A DNA stretch of 64,000 nucleotides. Source: Escherichia phage vB_EcoM_JS09. The notes beneath the pieces were generated by a model. It was not told the origin of the DNA and made no database searches. It was given only the letters and a program-made list of their open reading frames with translations. The position numbers and the translations under genes were made by a program. This document shows, in pieces, positions 5,275 through 64,000 of the stretch; the stretch's first letter is position 1, and every line of letters starts with the position of its first letter. The stretch is from sequence record NC_024124.2. One strand, written 5' to 3'.

Positions 5275-5571
5275 ATGATTTTAACCGAACAAGAAACTAT
5301 GGTTCTTCGTGAACGTATTAAAACTATTCTGTCTGTAGGCGTTCATTGTGTTGTATTTGAAAAGGCTAACGGTGAGGTACGCACTATGTTTGCTTCGCGC
5401 GATGAACTTGAAGTCAAATATGAAAATAACAATCCGGCAACAGAAGTTCGTTATGAACCTCGTGAATCAGTTCGAGCATTCGATACCAAGTTAGGTCAGT
5501 GGCGTTCTTTCCGCCTTGATAAAGTAATTTCGGTTGATGGTACTCCGGTGGAACGTTTGCTTCTTATGTAA
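5275..5571 (+). CDS. hypothetical protein (31.x region)
   Basis: ORF track 5263..5571 starts on GTG; first ATG at 5275 directly after cd stop with GGTGAA RBS. Confidence 0.5.
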   Translation: MILTEQETMVLRERIKTILSVGVHCVVFEKANGEVRTMFASRDELEVKYENNNPATEVRYEPRESVRAFDTKLGQWRSFRLDKVISVDGTPVERLLLM

Positions 5572-29897: not shown

Positions 29898-31466
29898 TTA
29901 GATGCCTTTTACATATACACGGCGGAAGTAAGCGTTCTTACCAAGGCTGTTCAGGATAGACGGCATACCGGACTGGATGCGAGCACCTGGAGCCTGCAGG
30001 GAACTTTCAGCAAACGGGTTAACACCGATACCGTAACGAGTTTTAAAGCCCATTACCGGCTGGAAGTTCTTAGGATCGGAACCACGCAGTGGGGTAAGTG
30101 CAACGTAAGGAGCATAGTAAATACCTGCATCCATTTCGTTAGCGCCTTTGTAACCAACGGTGAAGTAATCCTGTTTAGCATACTGGTCGATGTATACGCG
30201 GTATTTACCACCAAGTACACCGGCAAATACGGACTTAGTAGTGTCGGTATTAAAACCAGAAGCCAGACCCTGTGCAGCATAAGAAATACCAGTATCAACT
30301 GAAGCCAGTACGTTAACTACGTTACGGGAAGCGATAATGAAGTTACCTTCACCACGACCGGTTTGACGAGCAATTTCAACTGCTTCTTTATCAATCTGGA
30401 ACAACAGAGATTTAAAGCTTTCACCGGCCCAACGAGCACCACGGATATCAATCGGGTCCTGGAAGTCAAATACACCAGCTTTAGAACCCGGAGTCAGGGT
30501 CATACCAGATTTACCAACCTGTGCTGAGTAGTTAATCCAATCAACAACTTCACGGTTGATTTCTAGCATAATTTCTGTAGCCAGAATACCGCTCAGTTCA
30601 GCATCAGCATCCATACCGTGTACTGCACGGAGGTCTTGTGCTAATTCGATAGAGTAAGCAGCTTTCAGCTGGCGAGATTTAGCTTCAATAACTTGTTTAT
30701 CGATACGGAAGCCCATTTCATTCCATGGGTTATCGGTAGAACCGTTGAAACCTTCCTGGAGTTCAGCGATAGAAGTAGCCATACCTTCAGCGATTTCTAC
30801 CAGTGCACCAGCTTCCATTTGTTTCTTAACTTCTGCATCTAATTTAGCTGCATCAGTTGCACCAGAATCAAGTGTTACGATAGCAGAAGCTTGCAGATAT
30901 ACAGTACCAGTTTCTTGGAAGAAGTGAGTATAGATATCACCTACAACAGTAGTAGTGTCAGCAGCCAGAGCTGGGAATTTCTTAGCAGCACCCTGACCAG
31001 AGAACATCGCGTCTGGGGCATACATCGGATGGAAAGCTTCTTTAGCGCCAGCAGCGATAGGGTCTTTACCATATACTGCACGGAGAGCAAATACCTGACC
31101 GGTCGGGCTGTTCATAGGCTGAACACCACAAATATCAAAAGCGATCAGATTAGGAATAGCACGACGAACCATACCCATAACTGCCGGCCCAATTTGGGTT
31201 ACTGCACCAGAGGTTTGACCTGCTGCGATGTTCTGAGCATTATAACCATGGTCACCACCAATTTCAGCTTCGGTCAAGAAAGAACCAAATGCCTGAGCGA
31301 TTTTCTCGTCTTTATATTCAGGGGATACTTCGAAATCTTTTTCCTGGTTTTCGAAGATTTTAGCGATAATAGCCTGCTTGCTATTAGCGATTTCCGGCAG
31401 GCCTTCACCTTCCAGCAGTTCTTTCCATTTGTCTACGAGCTGAGCTTTAGTTTTGATAGTAGTCAT
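29898..31466 (-). CDS. 23: major capsid protein
   Basis: 522 aa; near-identical to T4 gp23 as recalled. Confidence 0.97.
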   Translation of the reverse strand: MTTIKTKAQLVDKWKELLEGEGLPEIANSKQAIIAKIFENQEKDFEVSPEYKDEKIAQAFGSFLTEAEIGGDHGYNAQNIAAGQTSGAVTQIGPAVMGMVRRAIPNLIAFDICGVQPMNSPTGQVFALRAVYGKDPIAAGAKEAFHPMYAPDAMFSGQGAAKKFPALAADTTTVVGDIYTHFFQETGTVYLQASAIVTLDSGATDAAKLDAEVKKQMEAGALVEIAEGMATSIAELQEGFNGSTDNPWNEMGFRIDKQVIEAKSRQLKAAYSIELAQDLRAVHGMDADAELSGILATEIMLEINREVVDWINYSAQVGKSGMTLTPGSKAGVFDFQDPIDIRGARWAGESFKSLLFQIDKEAVEIARQTGRGEGNFIIASRNVVNVLASVDTGISYAAQGLASGFNTDTTKSVFAGVLGGKYRVYIDQYAKQDYFTVGYKGANEMDAGIYYAPYVALTPLRGSDPKNFQPVMGFKTRYGIGVNPFAESSLQAPGARIQSGMPSILNSLGKNAYFRRVYVKGI

Positions 31467-31483: not shown

Positions 31484-32296
31484 TTAGAAACGAGATGCGA
31501 CTTTCGCATATAAACTTACATTAGAATTCTGTTCTACCTGAGTTGTGGTAGTGTCAACTGCTTCGGCAACAAAATTAAGACCGGCAGCGTCATTGTCAAC
31601 TGTATTTATACTTTCGGTAATAGCGGCTTCTTCTTTAGTAGAACCTTTAACCATTTCTACAATAGCAGTTAACTTAGTACCAAATGCGTCAGAATAATCC
31701 ATACCTTCAACCAGGCCAATAACTTTTTCTTTCTGAGATTCAGTCAGGTCTTTTACGCTTTCATTAATAGCGGTTTCACGCTGAACGTAATTGATATATG
31801 CATCACGTTTGGTAACTTCTTCGAACAAACGAGCGGTTTCTTCTTTATGTTCGGCCAGCTCTTCTTCCATTTCTGCTACAACATCTACAGATTCTTCTGG
31901 AACAACAACGTTATGTTCAACAAACAGTTCTTTCAGACCACCAAGCATGGATTCGAACAAATCAGCTTTAATGCCTTTATCAACTGCGATTTGGTTTTCT
32001 GCGAGCCATTCTTTTGCAAGATGGTCTAGGAATTTAGAAGCTTGTTCAGCCAATTTTTTATCAGCTTTCTCTTCAGCATCTTCTTTAGCCTTTTCAACTT
32101 CTTCTTCGGCTTTTTCGGCGATGGCTTTGATATGAGATTCAGCCAGTTTGACTGCTTCCTGCTTAACGGTGGCTTCGAATACAGTGCTGAAATTAGCTTT
32201 AACGTCCGGAGACAGTTCTACTGATTCGAAAACACTATTAAGAGCAACTGAAGTCTCGATGTTCTGAGCTTCTTTCAAAAGTTGTTCTTTGATCAT
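31484..32296 (-). CDS. 22: prohead core scaffold protein
   Basis: 270 aa, acidic coiled-coil, T4 gp22 length and position. Confidence 0.9.
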   Translation of the reverse strand: MIKEQLLKEAQNIETSVALNSVFESVELSPDVKANFSTVFEATVKQEAVKLAESHIKAIAEKAEEEVEKAKEDAEEKADKKLAEQASKFLDHLAKEWLAENQIAVDKGIKADLFESMLGGLKELFVEHNVVVPEESVDVVAEMEEELAEHKEETARLFEEVTKRDAYINYVQRETAINESVKDLTESQKEKVIGLVEGMDYSDAFGTKLTAIVEMVKGSTKEEAAITESINTVDNDAAGLNFVAEAVDTTTTQVEQNSNVSLYAKVASRF

Positions 32297-32326: not shown

Positions 32327-32334
32327 TATTTATA
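32327..32334 (-). promoter_or_regulatory. late promoter TATAAATA (minus strand) for gene 22
   Basis: TATTTATA on + strand 31 nt upstream of gene 22 start, inside 3' end of gene 21. Confidence 0.6.
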
Positions 32335-32971
32335 ATGCTTTTAAACTCTCTGCGAGAGCTTTAAATGCTTCATCAGCACTGTTTTTGGTGGTTTCCACCG
32401 AATTTTCTGATTCTGATATTTGTTTAGGAGTAACCCAAGCATCTGGAGCAGAAGGTCCCCATACGGCATCTACGCCGACGGTTAATTTAAATCCTTCGTT
32501 CACGATACGGTACCCTTTATTGGTGTCGGTTAAAGAACCAAGACCACGAGAGGAAACACCTGGAATCCAACCAGCTCGTATATTAGCAGCTAATTTATCG
32601 CCGGGACCATGGTCGCCTTCAATAATTCTAGCACGTCCATATACATCGTTTCCTTTCCACCACATATCTTCAATAATGATAGCGGCTTGCATAGGGTCAA
32701 CATTTGCACGAGGTGGATGGTTTAATTCTCCAAGGGCTTGTTTGGTTGCGACTTGTTCTTTAATATAGTCACTTACTGCTTTTTCCAAAACGCGTTTAGG
32801 ATATAAACGTTTATTTCGGTTAACAACCTCTGCCTGAAGAAAAATACCTTCTATATAAAGCCCTGGTTTTAAGCCAGAATCTTTTCCATCATGAGATTCC
32901 AACATTGGAACGCCATCAATAATCTCACCGGGTTGACCCCAAGTTTCAATAAGTAACTCGGGTTTATTCAT
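32330..32971 (-). CDS. 21: prohead protease
   Basis: 213 aa; near-identical to T4 gp21 as recalled (LLIETWGQPGEIIDGVPMLESHDGKD...). Confidence 0.95.
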   Translation of the reverse strand: MNKPELLIETWGQPGEIIDGVPMLESHDGKDSGLKPGLYIEGIFLQAEVVNRNKRLYPKRVLEKAVSDYIKEQVATKQALGELNHPPRANVDPMQAAIIIEDMWWKGNDVYGRARIIEGDHGPGDKLAANIRAGWIPGVSSRGLGSLTDTNKGYRIVNEGFKLTVGVDAVWGPSAPDAWVTPKQISESENSVETTKNSADEAFKALAESLKAL

Positions 32972-57976: not shown

Positions 57977-58551
57977 TATGCAATCTCCATCTCACGAATC
58001 AAATCTGTGATAAACGAGTTTATATCTTCTTTTGCAACAATTTTTATTTTACGAAGTTTTTCGTTATCTAATACTGCCGCTTCATAAGTATCTACTGCAG
58101 CTAAAGGTCCTTTATATTGCGGATACTTACGAGCTTCATCACCTTTATCGTACCACACTAAAGGCTCGTCCGGATATGAAACCAAATTGTAAAATTTCTC
58201 ACGGTTCTCGTTAATATGATAAAGAATTTGGTCTCCGCCGGCATTTGCATATTTCTGAATAGAAGCTTGATACGCTGCTTCCTGAGATGTAATCCAACCA
58301 TAATACGGGTCATAGTTATCGTTGCACATCAAAAGAACCCAGTATAATTGTGGGTTTCCATAAATTATGTTTGCTAGTTCTTCAGGACGTGGAGAGCCTT
58401 TAATGTAATAAGAACGTAATCTATAATTGGCAGCCACACGCTTAAAGTACTCTTTATAGTTACGAAATATGTCTGTCATAGGAATAGTAGGTGCATTCTT
58501 ATTAACTGTTTTAGCACTATATCCTATTGGGTCGAAGAATGTAAATAACAA
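57976..58551 (-). CDS. 53: baseplate wedge subunit
   Basis: 191 aa; MLFTFFDP N-terminus as in T4 gp53; start codon appears to be TTG 7 nt after GGAAGGAG. Confidence 0.85.
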   Translation of the reverse strand: MLFTFFDPIGYSAKTVNKNAPTIPMTDIFRNYKEYFKRVAANYRLRSYYIKGSPRPEELANIIYGNPQLYWVLLMCNDNYDPYYGWITSQEAAYQASIQKYANAGGDQILYHINENREKFYNLVSYPDEPLVWYDKGDEARKYPQYKGPLAAVDTYEAAVLDNEKLRKIKIVAKEDINSFITDLIREMEIA

Positions 58552-58578
58552 GATAGTCTCCTTCCAATATGAAATTGG

Positions 58579-58586
58579 TATAAATA
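58579..58586 (+). promoter_or_regulatory. late promoter TATAAATA for gene 4
   Basis: TATAAATA 27 nt upstream of ATG 58613; a minus-strand TATAAATA lies at 58594-58601. Confidence 0.6.
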
Positions 58587-58612
58587 ATAATACTATTTAT
58601 AAGGAGGACAAC

Positions 58613-59062
58613 ATGGCCTACTCTGGTAAATGGGTCCCAAAAAATTTAAAAAAATACCGTGGAGACCATACCAAAATAACGTATCGTTCAAACTGGGAAA
58701 AATTCTTTTTCGAATGGTTGGATAAAAATCCAGAAATTATTGCATGGGGTAGTGAAACAGCAGTAATTCCATATTTTTGTAATGCTGAAGGTAAGAAACG
58801 TCGATACTATATGGACATATGGATGAAAGATGCATCAGGTCAAGAGTTCTTTGTAGAAATAAAACCAAAGAAAGAAACTCAGCCACCTATTAAACCGGTG
58901 AATCTTACAACTGCGGCTAAGAAACGTTATATGAATGAAATCTACACGTGGTCTGTGAACTGTGACAAATGGAAAGCTGCCTCAGCTGTTGCTGAAAAGA
59001 GAAATATAAAATTTCGAGTTCTAACCGAAGACGGACTTAGAAAACTCGGATACAAGGGGTAA
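58613..59062 (+). CDS. 4: head completion protein
   Basis: ORF track 58469..59062; T4 gp4 ([11 protein letters not shown]...) begins at internal Met after AAGGAGGA. Confidence 0.95.
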
Positions 59063-60626: not shown

Positions 60627-61361
60627 ATGGAGCTAATCTTTTTAAGCGGTATCAAACGTAGTGGTAAAGACACCACTGCTGATTATATCAATTCAAACTT
60701 TAAATCCGTAAAATACCAATTGGCATATCCGATTAAAGACGCTCTAGCAATAGCCTGGGGACGTAGGCATGCTGAAAATCCTGATGTATTCACAGAGTTG
60801 AAATACGAATACTTTGAAGGCATTGGATACGACCGTGAAACACCATTAAATCTCAATAAGTTGGATGTTATTGAATTATTGGAAGAAGCGCTAATTTATT
60901 TGCAAAGTCACTATTTACCAATTAATAATGTTAAAGTATTATCATCGTTAGAAGGTGGATATTCGTATCTAGATATTAAACCATATGAAGCCCTGCGTGA
61001 AGCTATAAATAATATCAACGACACATGGTCAATCCGCCGTCTTATGCAAGCCCTCGGTACGGATGTTGTCGTTAATTTATTTGACCGTATGTATTGGGTT
61101 AAACTTTTTGCATTAAACTATATGGATTATATTGGAAGTGATTTCGATTACTATGTTGTGACCGATACACGCCAAGTCCATGAAATGGAAACCGCTAGAG
61201 CGATGGGTGCTACAGTTATTCATGTGGTTCGCTCTGGTACGGAATCCACCGATAAACATATTACAGAAGCTGGGTTGCCTATTGAAGAAGGCGATTTAGT
61301 TATTACAAACGACGGCTCTTTAGAAGAGCTTTATTCTAAAATTGAAACAATCTTAAGGTAA
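60627..61361 (+). CDS. 1: deoxynucleoside monophosphate kinase
   Basis: 244 aa; N-terminus like T4 gp1 (M.LIFLSGIKRSGKDTTAD...). Confidence 0.95.
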   Translation: MELIFLSGIKRSGKDTTADYINSNFKSVKYQLAYPIKDALAIAWGRRHAENPDVFTELKYEYFEGIGYDRETPLNLNKLDVIELLEEALIYLQSHYLPINNVKVLSSLEGGYSYLDIKPYEALREAINNINDTWSIRRLMQALGTDVVVNLFDRMYWVKLFALNYMDYIGSDFDYYVVTDTRQVHEMETARAMGATVIHVVRSGTESTDKHITEAGLPIEEGDLVITNDGSLEELYSKIETILR

Positions 61362-61365
61362 TAAA

Positions 61366-62051
<686 letters not shown>

Positions 62052-62064
62052 TTTTCACAAAACA

Positions 62065-62094
62065 GTTTACATAAGGATGATGGTGTGTTACTAT
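62065..62094 (+). promoter_or_regulatory. T4-type early promoter nested in inverted repeat AGGATGAT/ATCATCCT
   Basis: GTTTAC 62065-62070, TACTAT 62089-62094; RBS AAGGAA then ATG 62129. Confidence 0.55.
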
Positions 62095-62128
62095 CATCCT
62101 ATCAAATAAACAACCTCAAGGAAATAAA

Positions 62129-62416
62129 ATGAAAACCTATAAAGAATTTATATCACCTGTTGCTAACGTTTCTACTCTGACTGAAGCAACCCTTACTTCC
62201 GAAGTTATTAAAGCAAACAAAGGCCGTGAGGGTAAACCAATGATTAGTCTAGCTGACGGCGAAGAAGTAAAAGGTACTGTTTACTTAGGAGACGGGTGGT
62301 CCGCTAAGAAAGATGGCGCTACTATTGTTATCTCTCCGGCTGAAGAGACTGCACTGTTTAAAGCTAAGCACATTTCTGTAGCTCAGCTTAAAATTATTGC
62401 AAAAACTCTTCTGTAA
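62129..62416 (+). CDS. ipI: internal protein I precursor with capsid-targeting sequence
   Basis: 95 aa; N-terminal MKTYKEFIS resembles T4 CTS MKTYQEFIAE; L-T-E at residue 19 fits gp21 cleavage motif. Confidence 0.85.
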   Translation: MKTYKEFISPVANVSTLTEATLTSEVIKANKGREGKPMISLADGEEVKGTVYLGDGWSAKKDGATIVISPAEETALFKAKHISVAQLKIIAKTLL

Positions 62417-62419
62417 GTA

Positions 62420-62449
62420 GTTTACACGCTGATAGGACTATGTTATAGT
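62420..62449 (+). promoter_or_regulatory. T4-type early promoter nested in inverted repeat TGATAGGACTA/TAGTCCTATCA
   Basis: GTTTAC 62420-62425, TATAGT 62444-62449. Confidence 0.55.
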
Positions 62450-62487
62450 AGTCCTATCAAAACAAAATGAGTAAATGGAGAAATAAA

Positions 62488-62673
62488 ATGAAACGCGCTG
62501 AACTGATTCGTAATGTTGCTGTAGTAATTGCTTCAATGGCTTTTAGTTTTTCGATGTTTGTAGGATTCATTTGTGGACTACTGACAACAACAGAAAATTC
62601 TATCTCATTGGTAGTAGCATTTCTAATCGGCTTAATCGCTATCGTTATGGATAAAATTGCAAAAGGTGAGTAA
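62488..62673 (+). CDS. hypothetical small membrane protein (two predicted TM helices)
   Basis: ORF track 62467..62673; ATG 62488 follows GGAG RBS; two hydrophobic stretches. Confidence 0.5.
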   Translation: MKRAELIRNVAVVIASMAFSFSMFVGFICGLLTTTENSISLVVAFLIGLIAIVMDKIAKGE

Positions 62674-62674
62674 A

Positions 62675-63037
62675 ATGAAATATCACGTATATGCGGATTT
62701 TGAAGCAAATCCTTCTAAAGACCCTGATTGTCGTTTGATACGCAGACCATTTGATTCAGCAGCTCAAGCATGGGCTTGGATTAAATCTAAATCGCCTGGT
62801 TATATGTTCTTTGAAGTAGTCGATGACAATGGTACACTGCATCCAGCCCCTACGGAAACTATTAATTTCCTTCTGTTTGCCGGTTACGACTGTTATCCTC
62901 TTGGCGGTATTGACGACCTTGTTGCTACAGGAAAAACTGTTGAGGCTCTTCGCGAAATTTGTAAAAACGCAGAAGAAAATTTTGACTGGTATCATATTGT
63001 TGATGCTCATACCTTTGAAATGGTGGAACATTCATGA
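62675..63037 (+). CDS. hypothetical protein
   Basis: ORF track 62657..63037; ATG 62675 right after upstream stop with AAGGTGAG RBS. Confidence 0.5.
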   Translation: MKYHVYADFEANPSKDPDCRLIRRPFDSAAQAWAWIKSKSPGYMFFEVVDDNGTLHPAPTETINFLLFAGYDCYPLGGIDDLVATGKTVEALREICKNAEENFDWYHIVDAHTFEMVEHS

Positions 63038-63324
63038 TTCTTTATGCTAAGGTAAAATCCGTTGAGAATGGATATGAAAGCGACCGAGCTGCAGCTAAAG
63101 CACTAGTCGATTACTATGGTATTTTGACCCACTTTGAAGTTGAAAAGGTTTACGTCGACCGTTCATCTTCACAGGTTAAATTACTTTGGGAAGACCGCAA
63201 ATTTAATAGTGTGAACTTTGATTTCTTTATTGAAACAGAAAAAGGTCCTCTTGAATATGATATTTTCAAGAATCCTTTGAAATTATGTTGCATTGAATAT
63301 AATTACATTAATATGGTACGGTGA
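63034..63324 (+). CDS. hypothetical protein
   Basis: 96 aa ORF, start overlaps upstream stop. Confidence 0.5.
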   Translation: MILYAKVKSVENGYESDRAAAKALVDYYGILTHFEVEKVYVDRSSSQVKLLWEDRKFNSVNFDFFIETEKGPLEYDIFKNPLKLCCIEYNYINMVR

Positions 63325-63328
63325 GTAA

Positions 63329-63844
63329 ATGAATATTTGTTTAGGCAGTACAATTCCTAAAGGTTACGTAATTGATGTCACTACTTGGGAAAATGACGGC
63401 GACAACTATAAAACCAAAACATTATTTGGTGTAGAAGAGCATGAGCTCCAACAGTTTAAATATCTCTTGAAGAAATTTAAGAGTCGTCATTCTAGCACTA
63501 AAGCTGAACGTTACTGTGGTAATACACCATTCAGTGATTGCTCGCTTTTAATCTATGAATACTTGGTTGAAGGACTGTTCTCAGACCAGCTTTATCCAGA
63601 ATTCATTAAAAAGGTCTTTGATATTGAAGTCGACCTTGGTAATAAATCTGAAGAAGACGAATCGCGTGTATTCGACCTGTTCTTTGTGAAAGGCGATGAG
63701 ATATCCCAAGGCCTTATTGATATTCTTGGCTATGCTTCTGAATACTACGACTATGATTTCTTGCGTGTAGTTGAACGTGTTGAATTCGCTTATATTGAAG
63801 AAGAAATTGTTTTGCCGACTGTTAAAATGATTGATTTGCTTTAA
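63329..63844 (+). CDS. hypothetical protein
   Basis: 171 aa ORF. Confidence 0.55.
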   Translation: MNICLGSTIPKGYVIDVTTWENDGDNYKTKTLFGVEEHELQQFKYLLKKFKSRHSSTKAERYCGNTPFSDCSLLIYEYLVEGLFSDQLYPEFIKKVFDIEVDLGNKSEEDESRVFDLFFVKGDEISQGLIDILGYASEYYDYDFLRVVERVEFAYIEEEIVLPTVKMIDLL

Positions 63845-63923
63845 GAATTATGTGTTATTATTAATTCATACCCTCTATTACCAAAGGTGCTCTAAAGTGC
63901 CTTTCATAATAGAAAGTTATTTA

Positions 63924-63998
63924 GGCCCTGTAGCTCAATGGGAGAGCTGTCAGCTCATAACTGATAGGTAGCTGGATCGAAACCAGCCAGGGTCACCA
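63924..63998 (+). tRNA. tRNA with anticodon CAU (Met or lysidine-type Ile), encoded CCA
   Basis: Hand-folded cloverleaf: acceptor GGCCCTG/CAGGGTC, D-arm GCTC/GAGC, anticodon loop CTCATAA, T-arm GCTGG/CCAGC, then A+CCA. Confidence 0.8.
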
Positions 63999-64000
63999 AT

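What the first reader, a model, noticed from the sequence alone, without database searches (positions are those of the whole stretch)
62065..63844. Internal protein I followed by a run of four unknown small ORFs up to the tRNA cluster
62129..62416 has the internal-protein capsid-targeting sequence (MKTYKEFISP...LTE, predicted gp21 cleavage after Glu19, leaving a 76-aa mature protein). IPI is packaged and injected, and in T4 inhibits a type IV restriction system. Downstream are a 61-aa two-TM protein and ORFs of 120, 96 and 171 aa with no motif I can recognise, in what is a hypervariable locus in T4-type phages. I do not see the GIY-YIG homing endonuclease (segB) that I would expect near the T4 tRNA genes.
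Basis: partly seen in the sequence, partly recalled or inferred. Interest (0 to 1): 0.5.

Follow-up and report, generated by a model that had tools for sequence, protein, structure and literature searches.

The report
Phage internal protein I gene block
This is the ordinary anti-restriction "internal protein I" gene of an RB69/HX01-like coliphage, followed by four conserved early genes that are already catalogued but have no known function, so the reading is largely correct and unsurprising.

Summary
The window is a Mosigvirus, 99.9% identical to phage HX01 over this stretch.

**ipI.** 62129..62416 is a true ipI orthologue (Pfam IPI_T4, 1e-49). Residues 20-95 align end to end with the solved mature T4 IPI* (PDB 2JUB), with 5 substitutions. 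The MKTYKEF targeting sequence and cleavage after Glu19 are therefore supported. The gp21 protease and gp22 scaffold are in the same window.

**The four "unknown" ORFs.**
- Three are orthologues of T4 trna.4 (84%), trna.3 (39%) and trna.2 (81%). The fourth is RB69ORF151c.
- All are under purifying selection.
- They are syntenic in Mosigvirus, Tequatrovirus and Dhakavirus, so this block is not hypervariable.
- The variable part is the ip-gene slot itself. It is bounded by two early-promoter/stem-loop (PeSL) elements, where relatives insert or swap other CTS-bearing genes.

**segB.** It is a T4-specific mobile gene inside T4's tRNA cluster, so its absence is expected.

**New details.**
- Trna.3 is a tandem duplication of a widespread ~55-aa phage mini-domain.
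- The 171-aa protein has a confident predicted fold with no solved-structure relative.

The functions of all four remain unknown.

The parts
61596..62051 (+). Context: gene 57B, the Acb1 anti-CBASS phosphodiesterase family, immediately upstream of ipI
   Evidence: Pfam Acb1 1.8e-58; 85% aa identity to T4 57B
62066..62100 (+). PeSL-type element 1: early-promoter-like site (TTTACA-17-TACTAT with upstream TG) overlapping a 12-bp stem-loop at 62074..62100
   Evidence: Promoter scan; GTTTAC...TAnnnT search; hairpin -15.4 kcal/mol, z -3.7; the same element lies upstream of the first ip gene in RB69
62129..62416 (+). ipI, internal protein I precursor, 95 aa
   Evidence: Pfam IPI_T4 1.1e-49 and phrog_4363; 87% identity to T4 IPI; dN/dS 0.03-0.07
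62129..62185 (+). Propeptide, residues 1-19: capsid-targeting sequence MKTYKEF... ending in LTE, the predicted gp21 cleavage site
   Evidence: The solved mature T4 IPI* (2JUB, 76 aa) aligns to residues 20-95 exactly. This is the only MKT[YF][KQ]EF ORF in the 64-kb window
62186..62413 (+). Mature IPI*, 76 aa, pI 9.0, with 5 substitutions relative to T4 IPI* (V23A, I28V, A65V, H67Q, N74T)
62421..62459 (+). PeSL-type element 2: early-promoter-like site (TTTACA-17-TATAGT with TG) overlapping a 12-bp stem-loop at 62430..62459. It is the promoter for the downstream four-gene string and the boundary of ip-cassette indels in relatives
   Evidence: I21; -17.7 kcal/mol, z -4.8. It is duplicated on both sides of the extra ip gene in 308Ecol101PP. 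The 48-nt element recurs at other loci in Tequatroviruses
62488..62673 (+). trna.4 orthologue, 61 aa, two-TM hairpin membrane protein
   Evidence: 84% identity to T4 Trna.4; phrog_1692; hydropathy; GGAG 8 nt upstream of the ATG
62675..63037 (+). trna.3 orthologue, 120 aa, acidic. It is a tandem duplication of a beta-alpha-beta-beta mini-domain; the C-terminal copy (residues 64-119) belongs to a widespread family of stand-alone 55-80-aa phage proteins
63034..63324 (+). trna.2 orthologue, 96 aa; start overlaps the trna.3 stop (ATGA)
   Evidence: 81% identity to T4 Trna.2. Narrow family, 67-100% identity, precomputed PF27001. T4 Trna.2 was enriched in a DRT1 pulldown (PMC13275509)
63329..63844 (+). 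171-aa ORF = RB69ORF151c, acidic (pI 4.5), with an invariant W-E-N-D-G-D-x-Y-K-T hairpin. It is absent from the syntenic position in T4
63837..63861 (+). MotA-box middle-promoter-like site (TGCTTTA-N12-TATTAT) overlapping the ORF171 stop codon
   Evidence: 9 such sites in the window against 1.55 expected. The same sequence follows trna.2 in T4 and ORF171 in phiD1
63874..63913 (+). Conserved 40-nt hairpin between the middle-promoter-like site and tRNA-Met
   Evidence: -18.9 kcal/mol, z -4.4; conserved in RB69 and 308Ecol101PP, and in Dhakavirus C6 with compensatory inner-stem changes
63924..63998 (+). tRNA-Met (CAU), the first of two tRNA genes in this phage group
   Evidence: ARAGORN; Rfam tRNA 59.4 bits
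32330..32971 (-). Context: gp21 prohead serine protease, the enzyme predicted to remove the IPI propeptide
   Evidence: Pfam Peptidase_S77 2.8e-107. The gp22 scaffold (31484..32296) and gp23 (29898..31466) are adjacent

Best explanation
The interval is the Mosigvirus version of the T4 early gene string 57B - ipI - trna.4 - trna.3 - trna.2 (- RB69ORF151c) - tRNAs. It contains two units.

Unit 1 is a single-gene ip cassette bounded by two promoter-early/stem-loop (PeSL) elements. The IPI precursor is made from an early sigma-70-type promoter. Its N-terminal MKTYKEF targeting sequence directs it into the scaffolding core of the prohead. The gp21 protease cuts it after Glu19 (LTE|ATL). The basic 76-aa IPI* is then packaged with the DNA and injected ahead of gene expression, where it blocks a GmrSD-type (type IV, modified-cytosine-dependent) restriction nuclease. 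Shown here: orthology, the CTS, the cleavage-site register, and the presence of the protease and scaffold. Inferred from T4 and RB69 experiments: packaging, injection and nuclease inhibition.

Unit 2 is a tightly packed, translationally coupled string of four genes (trna.4, trna.3, trna.2, ORF171). It starts at the second PeSL promoter and probably reads through into the tRNA genes. None of the four has a CTS, so they are proteins made in the infected cell rather than injected. I judge them most likely to be non-essential early host-takeover or counter-defence accessory proteins: one small inner-membrane hairpin and three small acidic cytoplasmic proteins that act by binding host targets. That functional step is inference, at roughly 45% probability.

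Among relatives the ip slot is remodelled by recombination at the PeSL repeats, while the four-gene block stays in place.
For: Identity of the phage: 99.9% identical to HX01 and SSE1. IPI: Pfam IPI_T4 at 166.7 bits against a cut-off of 25; 87% identity to T4 IPI; 2JUB aligns to residues 20-95; gp21, gp22 and gp23 are in the window. RB69 IPI is reported to protect against GmrSD (PMC6024577). Ip1, Ip2 and Ip3 each block a distinct GmrSD variant (PMC12373910). PeSL elements. Relatives carry extra or different CTS genes exactly at these elements, as the PeSL model describes (PMC2839356, PMC4122927). Four-gene block: orthology to T4; synteny in RB69, phiD1 and C6; purifying selection; overlapping or adjacent stop and start codons; no CTS. 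In T4, trna.2 and trna.3 are early at both RNA and protein level, trna.4 is early at RNA level, and ipI is early RNA with late protein (PMC9697503 supplement). Neighbourhood: 57B is an Acb1-family anti-CBASS enzyme. T4 Trna.2 co-purified with the DRT1 defence protein.
Confidence: 0.8

Rival explanations
1. The four downstream proteins serve the phage tRNA genes they are co-transcribed with, for example in tRNA maturation, modification or repair, or in protection against host anticodon nucleases, rather than general counter-defence.
For: ORF171 homologues keep a position next to or inside the tRNA cluster in distant Straboviridae. In Klebsiella KPV15 the homologue lies between tRNA-Met and tRNA-Arg; in Aeromonas phage 31 it lies between 57B and the tRNAs. 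The genes sit on the same strand directly upstream of the tRNAs, with a conserved promoter and hairpin junction. ORF171 has an invariant acidic ENDGD loop plus invariant R146 and E158, which could form a catalytic or metal site.
Against: No RNA-binding, nucleotidyltransferase, ligase or kinase signature was found by sequence or fold. T4 has eight tRNAs but lacks ORF171 at this position. Trna.2 is confined to a narrow group of coliphages, whereas tRNA clusters are widespread. The conserved position may simply reflect inherited synteny.
Confidence: 0.1
2. One or more of the four downstream ORFs are additional virion-packaged, injected proteins like IPI.
For: They lie in the ip locus, next to a bona fide internal protein. 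Relatives place further CTS-bearing genes at the same junction.
Against: None begins with the MKT[YF][KQ]EF targeting sequence, and only ipI does in the whole window. T4 Trna.2 and Trna.3 behave as early proteins, whereas ipI, ipII and ipIII are 'early RNA, late protein'. The proteins are acidic or membrane-embedded, unlike the basic IPI*.
Confidence: 0.04
3. The small ORFs are chance reading frames in a long tRNA leader transcript and are not genes.
For: They are short and unannotated by function, and they lie upstream of tRNA genes.
Against: dN/dS is 0.08-0.38 with dS up to saturation across four relatives. PHROG hits range from 1e-32 to 1e-68. T4 Trna.2 and Trna.3 are detected as proteins. 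Two confident AF2 models were obtained.
Confidence: 0.01

Closest known systems
Bacteriophage T4 internal protein I (IPI / IPI*, Pfam PF11634, PDB 2JUB), injected inhibitor of the GmrSD type IV restriction enzyme
   Same: Same length (95 aa), same CTS type, same cleavage register (E19|A20). The mature part is 71/76 identical. Same position between 57B and trna.4.
   Different: Five substitutions in the mature protein (V23A, I28V, A65V, H67Q, N74T). The host phage is a Mosigvirus, a genus whose type member RB69 carries arabinosyl-hmC rather than glucosyl-hmC DNA (PMC6024577). The range of GmrSD variants inhibited was not tested.
T4 genes trna.4, trna.3, trna.2 ('conserved hypothetical proteins' between ipI and the tRNA cluster) and RB69ORF151c
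   Same: Same order, same strand and the same tight spacing. Trna.4 and Trna.2 are 84% and 81% identical to T4, and ORF171 is 92% identical to RB69ORF151c.
   Different: Trna.3 is only 39-44% identical to the T4, phiD1 and C6 alleles and 16 aa shorter than T4's, so it is the one fast-diverging gene of the block. T4 has no ORF171 at this position.
PeSL (promoter-early stem-loop) mobile regulatory cassettes of T4-type phages (Arbiol et al. 2010, PMC2839356; Comeau et al. 2014, PMC4122927)
   Same: A GTTTAC -35 and a TAnnnT -10 overlap a strong hairpin. The elements sit at the borders of single-gene indels between close relatives, and direct copies flank the inserted gene.
   Different: Neither terminator nor promoter activity was measured here. 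The hairpins have no T-tract.
Other T-even internal proteins (Ip2, Ip3, and the ip genes of the polymorphic ipI locus; Repoila et al. 1994)
   Same: They share the CTS. The alternative ip genes of relatives (RB69ORF156c, the 87-aa gene of 308Ecol101PP, the 90-aa gene of C6) occupy the same slot.
   Different: The window carries only ipI at this slot, and it is the only CTS-bearing ORF in the 64 kb. ipII and ipIII, if present, lie beyond the window end.
T4 SegB GIY-YIG homing endonuclease
   Same: Nothing, apart from the neighbourhood of tRNA genes.
   Different: There is no such ORF here. In T4 it lies inside the tRNA cluster, not next to ipI, and it is missing from many T-even phages.

Membership tests
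T4 internal protein I (IPI_T4, PF11634) | Significant match to the IPI_T4 domain over its full length | tested here: met
   166.7 bits against a gathering cut-off of 25; profile positions 1-76 of 76 match residues 20-95
T4 internal protein I (IPI_T4, PF11634) | N-terminal capsid-targeting sequence of the MKT(Y/F)(K/Q)EF type | tested here: met
   MKTYKEFISP at the first start codon of the ORF; T4 has MKTFKEFTST
T4 internal protein I (IPI_T4, PF11634) | gp21-type (L/I)-x-E cleavage site in register with the N-terminus of mature IPI* | tested here: met
   LTE19|A20; the 76-residue 2JUB chain starts at the aligned Ala
T4 internal protein I (IPI_T4, PF11634) | Prohead protease and scaffolding core encoded by the same genome | tested here: met
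   Peptidase_S77 2.8e-107 and T4_CASP 1.5e-89 at 32330..32971 and 31484..32296 on the minus strand
T4 internal protein I (IPI_T4, PF11634) | Packaged in the virion, injected, and inhibits a GmrSD-type nuclease | not testable with these tools
   Reported for T4 and for RB69 IPI in the literature (PMC6024577, PMC12373910); not measured for this phage
PeSL composite promoter/stem-loop cassette | Early-promoter consensus overlapping a stable hairpin | tested here: met
   62066..62100 and 62421..62459; z-scores -3.7 and -4.8
PeSL composite promoter/stem-loop cassette | Sits at indel boundaries between close relatives, with direct copies flanking the variable gene | tested here: met
   308Ecol101PP has PeSL - ipX - PeSL; RB69 and C6 also vary here; the junction survey shows insertion and replacement classes
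PeSL composite promoter/stem-loop cassette | Functions as a promoter and as a terminator or RNA-end structure in vivo | not testable with these tools
   No transcript data are available; no T-tract terminator was called
T4 Trna.4 / Trna.3 / Trna.2 orthologue set | Significant full-length similarity plus conserved order between ipI and the tRNAs | tested here: met
   E-values 7e-36, 1e-27 and 1e-52; gene order in T4 and RB69
CTS-bearing internal proteins (tested on the four downstream ORFs) | N-terminal capsid-targeting sequence | tested here: not met
   Their N-termini are MKRAEL, MKYHVY, MILYAK and MNICLG; neither a strict nor a loose CTS pattern matched
SegB / GIY-YIG homing endonuclease | GIY-YIG domain ORF in or beside the tRNA genes | tested here: not met
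   No such ORF or Pfam hit in 62065..64000. HX01 and RB69 have none in the 3 kb downstream according to their annotation

The most novel reading that the evidence does not exclude
At least one of the four downstream proteins is a new kind of counter-defence factor. There are three candidates. (1) The 171-aa protein: a confident fold with no solved relative, an invariant ENDGD loop, and a conserved place beside the tRNA genes across Straboviridae. (2) The Trna.3 mini-domain family: a widespread ~55-aa phage module, duplicated here. (3) Trna.2, which co-purified with the DRT1 reverse-transcriptase defence protein in T4.
Probability: 0.3. Interest if true: 0.55.

Novelty: already known. Interest (0 to 1): 0.2.

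Why it matters
It matters little as a discovery. The phage is essentially a sequenced one (HX01), ipI is a textbook anti-restriction gene, and the four ORFs are already catalogued as conserved hypotheticals. The value lies in tidying the annotation.

- It separates the variable part of the locus (the PeSL-bounded ip slot) from the stable four-gene block.
- It shows that Acb1 (57B) and IPI sit side by side at the head of a string of early genes with no known function. That makes those genes reasonable, cheap candidates for anti-defence screens.
- It adds two structural facts: Trna.3 is a duplicated mini-domain of a large phage family, and RB69ORF151c has a confident fold without solved relatives.

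Tried and rejected
- **Family searches of the four ORFs.** Pfam and NCBIfam gave only sub-threshold noise. Scanning 41 mini-domain relatives against Pfam gave nothing.
- **PDB sequence searches.** Profile searches for ORF171 and for the mini-domain gave no credible hit.
- **BFVD.** It returned only uncharacterised phage proteins.
- **afdb50.** The library was not available.
- **Genomic context of distant ORF171 homologues.** They sit in runs of unannotated small ORFs, which is uninformative.
- **Paralogues in the window.** None of ORF171 or of the mini-domain.
- **Rfam on 61500..64000.** Only the tRNA. A snoR130 hit (28 bits against a gathering score of 40) is chance.
- **Late promoter.** TATAAATA is absent between 61012 and 64000; the nearest site, at 61004, lies inside gene 1.
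- **AV110 early-protein toxicity screen.** I tried to link the locus to it. By accession order the locus is gp244-249, which is not among the six hits. The list of tested genes is not available, so this is weak.
- **IPI* structure paper.** PMC2255585 is not held, so I could not map the five substitutions onto functional residues.
Full report
**What is there.** The 2.4 kb from 61596 to 64000 is 99.9% identical to Escherichia phage HX01 and Shigella phage SSE1, and 95-97% identical to many other Mosigvirus genomes of the RB69 group. On the + strand the window reads as follows:
- gene 1, dNMP kinase (60627..61361)
- 57A (61366..61596)
- 57B (61596..62051)
- ipI (62129..62416)
- ORFs of 61 aa (62488..62673), 120 aa (62675..63037), 96 aa (63034..63324) and 171 aa (63329..63844)
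- tRNA-Met (63924..63998)

HX01 and RB69 have only two tRNA genes at this locus (Met, Arg), so 'tRNA cluster' is generous.

**IPI.**
- The 95-aa product matches Pfam IPI_T4 over the whole 76-position model (1.1e-49, 166.7 bits against a cut-off of 25). It is 87% identical to T4 IPI.
- The only solved-structure match is 2JUB, the 76-residue mature T4 IPI*. Its first residue aligns with Ala20 of the window protein and its last with Leu95. Cleavage after Glu19 (LTE|ATL), leaving 76 residues, is therefore supported by register with the experimentally defined mature protein.
- The N-terminus MKTYKEF is the capsid-targeting type. It is the only such ORF in all six frames of the 64 kb.
- The machinery it needs is in the same window: gp21 prohead protease (Peptidase_S77, 2.8e-107), gp22 scaffold and gp23.
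- The mature protein differs from T4 IPI* at five positions: V23A, I28V, A65V, H67Q and N74T. RB69 IPI, described as differing from T4 at four positions, is reported to protect RB69 from GmrSD-type enzymes (PMC6024577).
- Ip1, Ip2 and Ip3 of T4 each block a distinct GmrSD variant (PMC12373910).
- Packaging, injection and nuclease inhibition are thus inferred by close orthology. They were not shown here.

**The four downstream ORFs are not anonymous.**
- In T4 the same interval reads ipI - trna.4 (61 aa) - trna.3 (136 aa) - trna.2 (95 aa) - tRNAs.
- The window proteins compare to them as follows: Trna.4 84% identical (E 7e-36), Trna.3 39% (E 1e-27) and Trna.2 81% (E 1e-52).
- The 2003 RB69 annotation already names them tRNA.4, tRNA.3 and tRNA.2, followed by RB69ORF151c. 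That last ORF is the 171-aa gene, at 92% identity.
- The same four genes in the same order occur in the Tequatrovirus phiD1 and the Dhakavirus C6.
- Pairwise dN/dS is 0.08-0.38, with synonymous divergence up to saturation.
- In T4 time-resolved omics, trna.2 and trna.3 are early at both RNA and protein level. trna.4 is early at RNA level. ipI is 'early RNA, late protein' (PMC9697503 supplement).
- They are therefore real, expressed, conserved genes of unknown function.
- IPI, Trna.4, Trna.2 and 57B are more similar to T4 (78-87%) than the flanking core genes 1 (64%) and 57A (58%). Trna.3 is the divergent one.

**What actually varies.** ipI is bracketed by two elements of the PeSL type.
- Each has an early-promoter consensus (GTTTACA - 17 nt - TAnnnT, with an upstream TG) overlapping a 12-bp hairpin. 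They lie at 62066..62100 and 62421..62459. The hairpins fold at -15.4 and -17.7 kcal/mol, with z-scores of -3.7 and -4.8.
- In 308Ecol101PP a second CTS gene (MKTYKEFIAESQSSTLSE...) sits between ipI and trna.4, with a direct copy of the second element on each side.
- In RB69 another CTS gene, ORF156c (MKTYQEFIAE...), sits between 57B and ipI. Dhakavirus C6 has a different ip gene plus a truncated one.
- I surveyed the ipI | PeSL | trna.4 junction. 220 records match it, and 111 cover at least 80% of the query. In the 60 records listed:
  - some junctions are contiguous;
  - others carry a 320-370 bp insertion, several of them annotated as a second internal head protein;
  - others keep only the trna.4 side;
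  - the 48-nt element alone recurs elsewhere in Tequatrovirus genomes.
- This is the behaviour described for PeSL cassettes (PMC2839356, PMC4122927) and for the polymorphic ipI locus.
- 'Hypervariable' therefore applies to the ip slot, not to the four-gene block.

**segB.** In T4 it lies inside the tRNA cluster, between tRNA-Arg and tRNA-Ile. It is a homing endonuclease absent from T2L, RB1, RB3 and RB6-9 (PMC2330249). Its absence here is the normal state.

**What the four proteins look like.**
- *Trna.4* is a 6.6-kDa hairpin with two hydrophobic segments. Basic residues at the N-terminus suggest an N-in, C-in topology.
- *Trna.3*:
  - An exhaustive search found 100 cluster representatives with E<1e-3. 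Nearly all are stand-alone proteins of 55-80 aa matching residues 64-119, with the motif FAGxxYYPxGGxxD...DWxHIVD. They fall in PHROGs 1411, 17649, 4811 and 5638, all of unknown function.
  - The AF2 model (pLDDT 90, pTM 0.59) shows two similar beta-alpha-beta-beta units.
  - A profile of the N-terminal half aligns in register to the mini-domain family (hhalign probability 88.7%, E 2.6e-6).
  - Trna.3 is therefore a tandem duplication with a degenerate first copy.
- *Trna.2* belongs to a narrow family, 67-100% identical. T4 Trna.2 was one of two phage proteins enriched with wild-type DRT1 in a pulldown, and the authors did not follow it up (PMC13275509).
- *ORF171*:
  - It occurs in 560 phage records spanning Escherichia, Klebsiella, Enterobacter and Aeromonas phages.
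  - In Klebsiella KPV15 and Aeromonas phage 31 it keeps its place near the tRNA genes.
  - Its invariant residues are E21-N-D-G-D25, Y27, T29, G64-N65, R146-V147 and E158.

**How it most likely works.** IPI follows the T4 route, as described under 'IPI' above. The second PeSL promoter drives the translationally coupled string trna.4 - trna.3 - trna.2 - ORF171. Stop and start codons overlap or abut, and Shine-Dalgarno sequences are in place. None of the four has a CTS, so they act in the infected cell. The case for early accessory or counter-defence proteins rests on the following points:
- their early timing in T4;
- their small size and acidity;
- their position downstream of two proven anti-defence genes, Acb1/57B and IPI;
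- the DRT1 pulldown.

I put this at about 45%. A tRNA-related role is about 10% and packaging about 4%; the remainder is 'other or unknown'. The identity and architecture statement as a whole I hold at about 0.8.

**Junction to the tRNAs.**
- The ORF171 stop codon overlaps a MotA-box middle-promoter-like site, TGCTTTA-N12-TATTAT (63837..63861). There are 9 such sites in the window against 1.55 expected.
- A 40-nt hairpin follows at 63874..63913 (z -4.4).
- The same promoter-like sequence, followed by a corresponding stem-loop-forming stretch, follows trna.2 directly in T4 and follows ORF171 in phiD1. Dhakavirus C6 keeps the hairpin with compensatory changes in the inner stem.
- The presence or absence of ORF171 is thus a clean indel upstream of a conserved tRNA promoter and leader.

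**Verdict.** The 'four unknown ORFs in a hypervariable locus' framing needs correction: they are three named T4 orthologues plus RB69ORF151c, in a stable block. The finding is ordinary and already annotated in public genomes. It has modest residual interest as a short list of candidates for anti-defence testing.

Noticed in passing
window 63837-63913: A MotA-box middle-promoter-like site (TGCTTTA-N12-TATTAT) overlaps the stop codon of the 171-aa ORF and is followed by a conserved 40-nt hairpin just before tRNA-Met. The same promoter-like sequence and a similar stem-loop-forming stretch follow trna.2 in T4 and ORF171 in phiD1. Dhakavirus C6 keeps the hairpin through compensatory changes.
   Followed up: partly
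window 61596-62051: Gene 57B, directly upstream of ipI, is an Acb1-family anti-CBASS phosphodiesterase (Pfam 1.8e-58). Two characterised anti-defence genes therefore sit side by side at the head of this early gene string.
   Followed up: partly
window 1159, 3285, 6837, 7280, 14182, 29516 (+ strand): Further GTTTAC...TAnnnT early-promoter-like sites, several with flanking inverted repeats apparent by eye, like the two around ipI. The PeSL-type element appears to be dispersed through the early regions of this genome.
   Followed up: partly
window 58469-59062 (+): A 197-aa ORF just upstream of gene 2 has a TnsA-like endonuclease N-terminal domain (3.5e-20). The corresponding HX01 gene, immediately upstream of gene 2, is annotated 'homing endonuclease'. 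So a free-standing endonuclease does exist about 3 kb from ipI, but it is not a GIY-YIG and not segB.
   Followed up: partly
L003 (HX01 RefSeq NC_018855) 5329-5483: The RefSeq record annotates a 24-aa 'hypothetical protein' CDS on the minus strand (5360..5434) where ARAGORN finds tRNA-Met and tRNA-Arg. No tRNA features are listed there. This is probably an annotation artefact.
   Followed up: partly
L005 (Yersinia phage phiD1) 4116-4724: A 202-aa ORF inserted between the ORF171 homologue and a nine-tRNA cluster has a weak, sub-threshold HNH hit (E 0.005). It may be a different mobile endonuclease at the place where T4 relatives vary.
   Followed up: partly
L006 (Dhakavirus C6) about 2078-2303: A CTS-type start (MKTYQEFITEAKK...) runs into a stop after about 25 codons, and the annotated ORF153 continues in another frame. 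This looks like a frameshifted or decaying ip gene upstream of an intact, unrelated ip gene.
   Followed up: no
window 62675-63037 compared with L001, L005, L006: trna.3 is only 39-44% identical to the T4, phiD1 and C6 alleles, while its neighbours trna.4 and trna.2 are 52-85% identical to the same phages and the core genes 1 and 57A are 58-64% identical to T4. This mosaic pattern suggests allele replacement or accelerated divergence of this one gene.
   Followed up: partly
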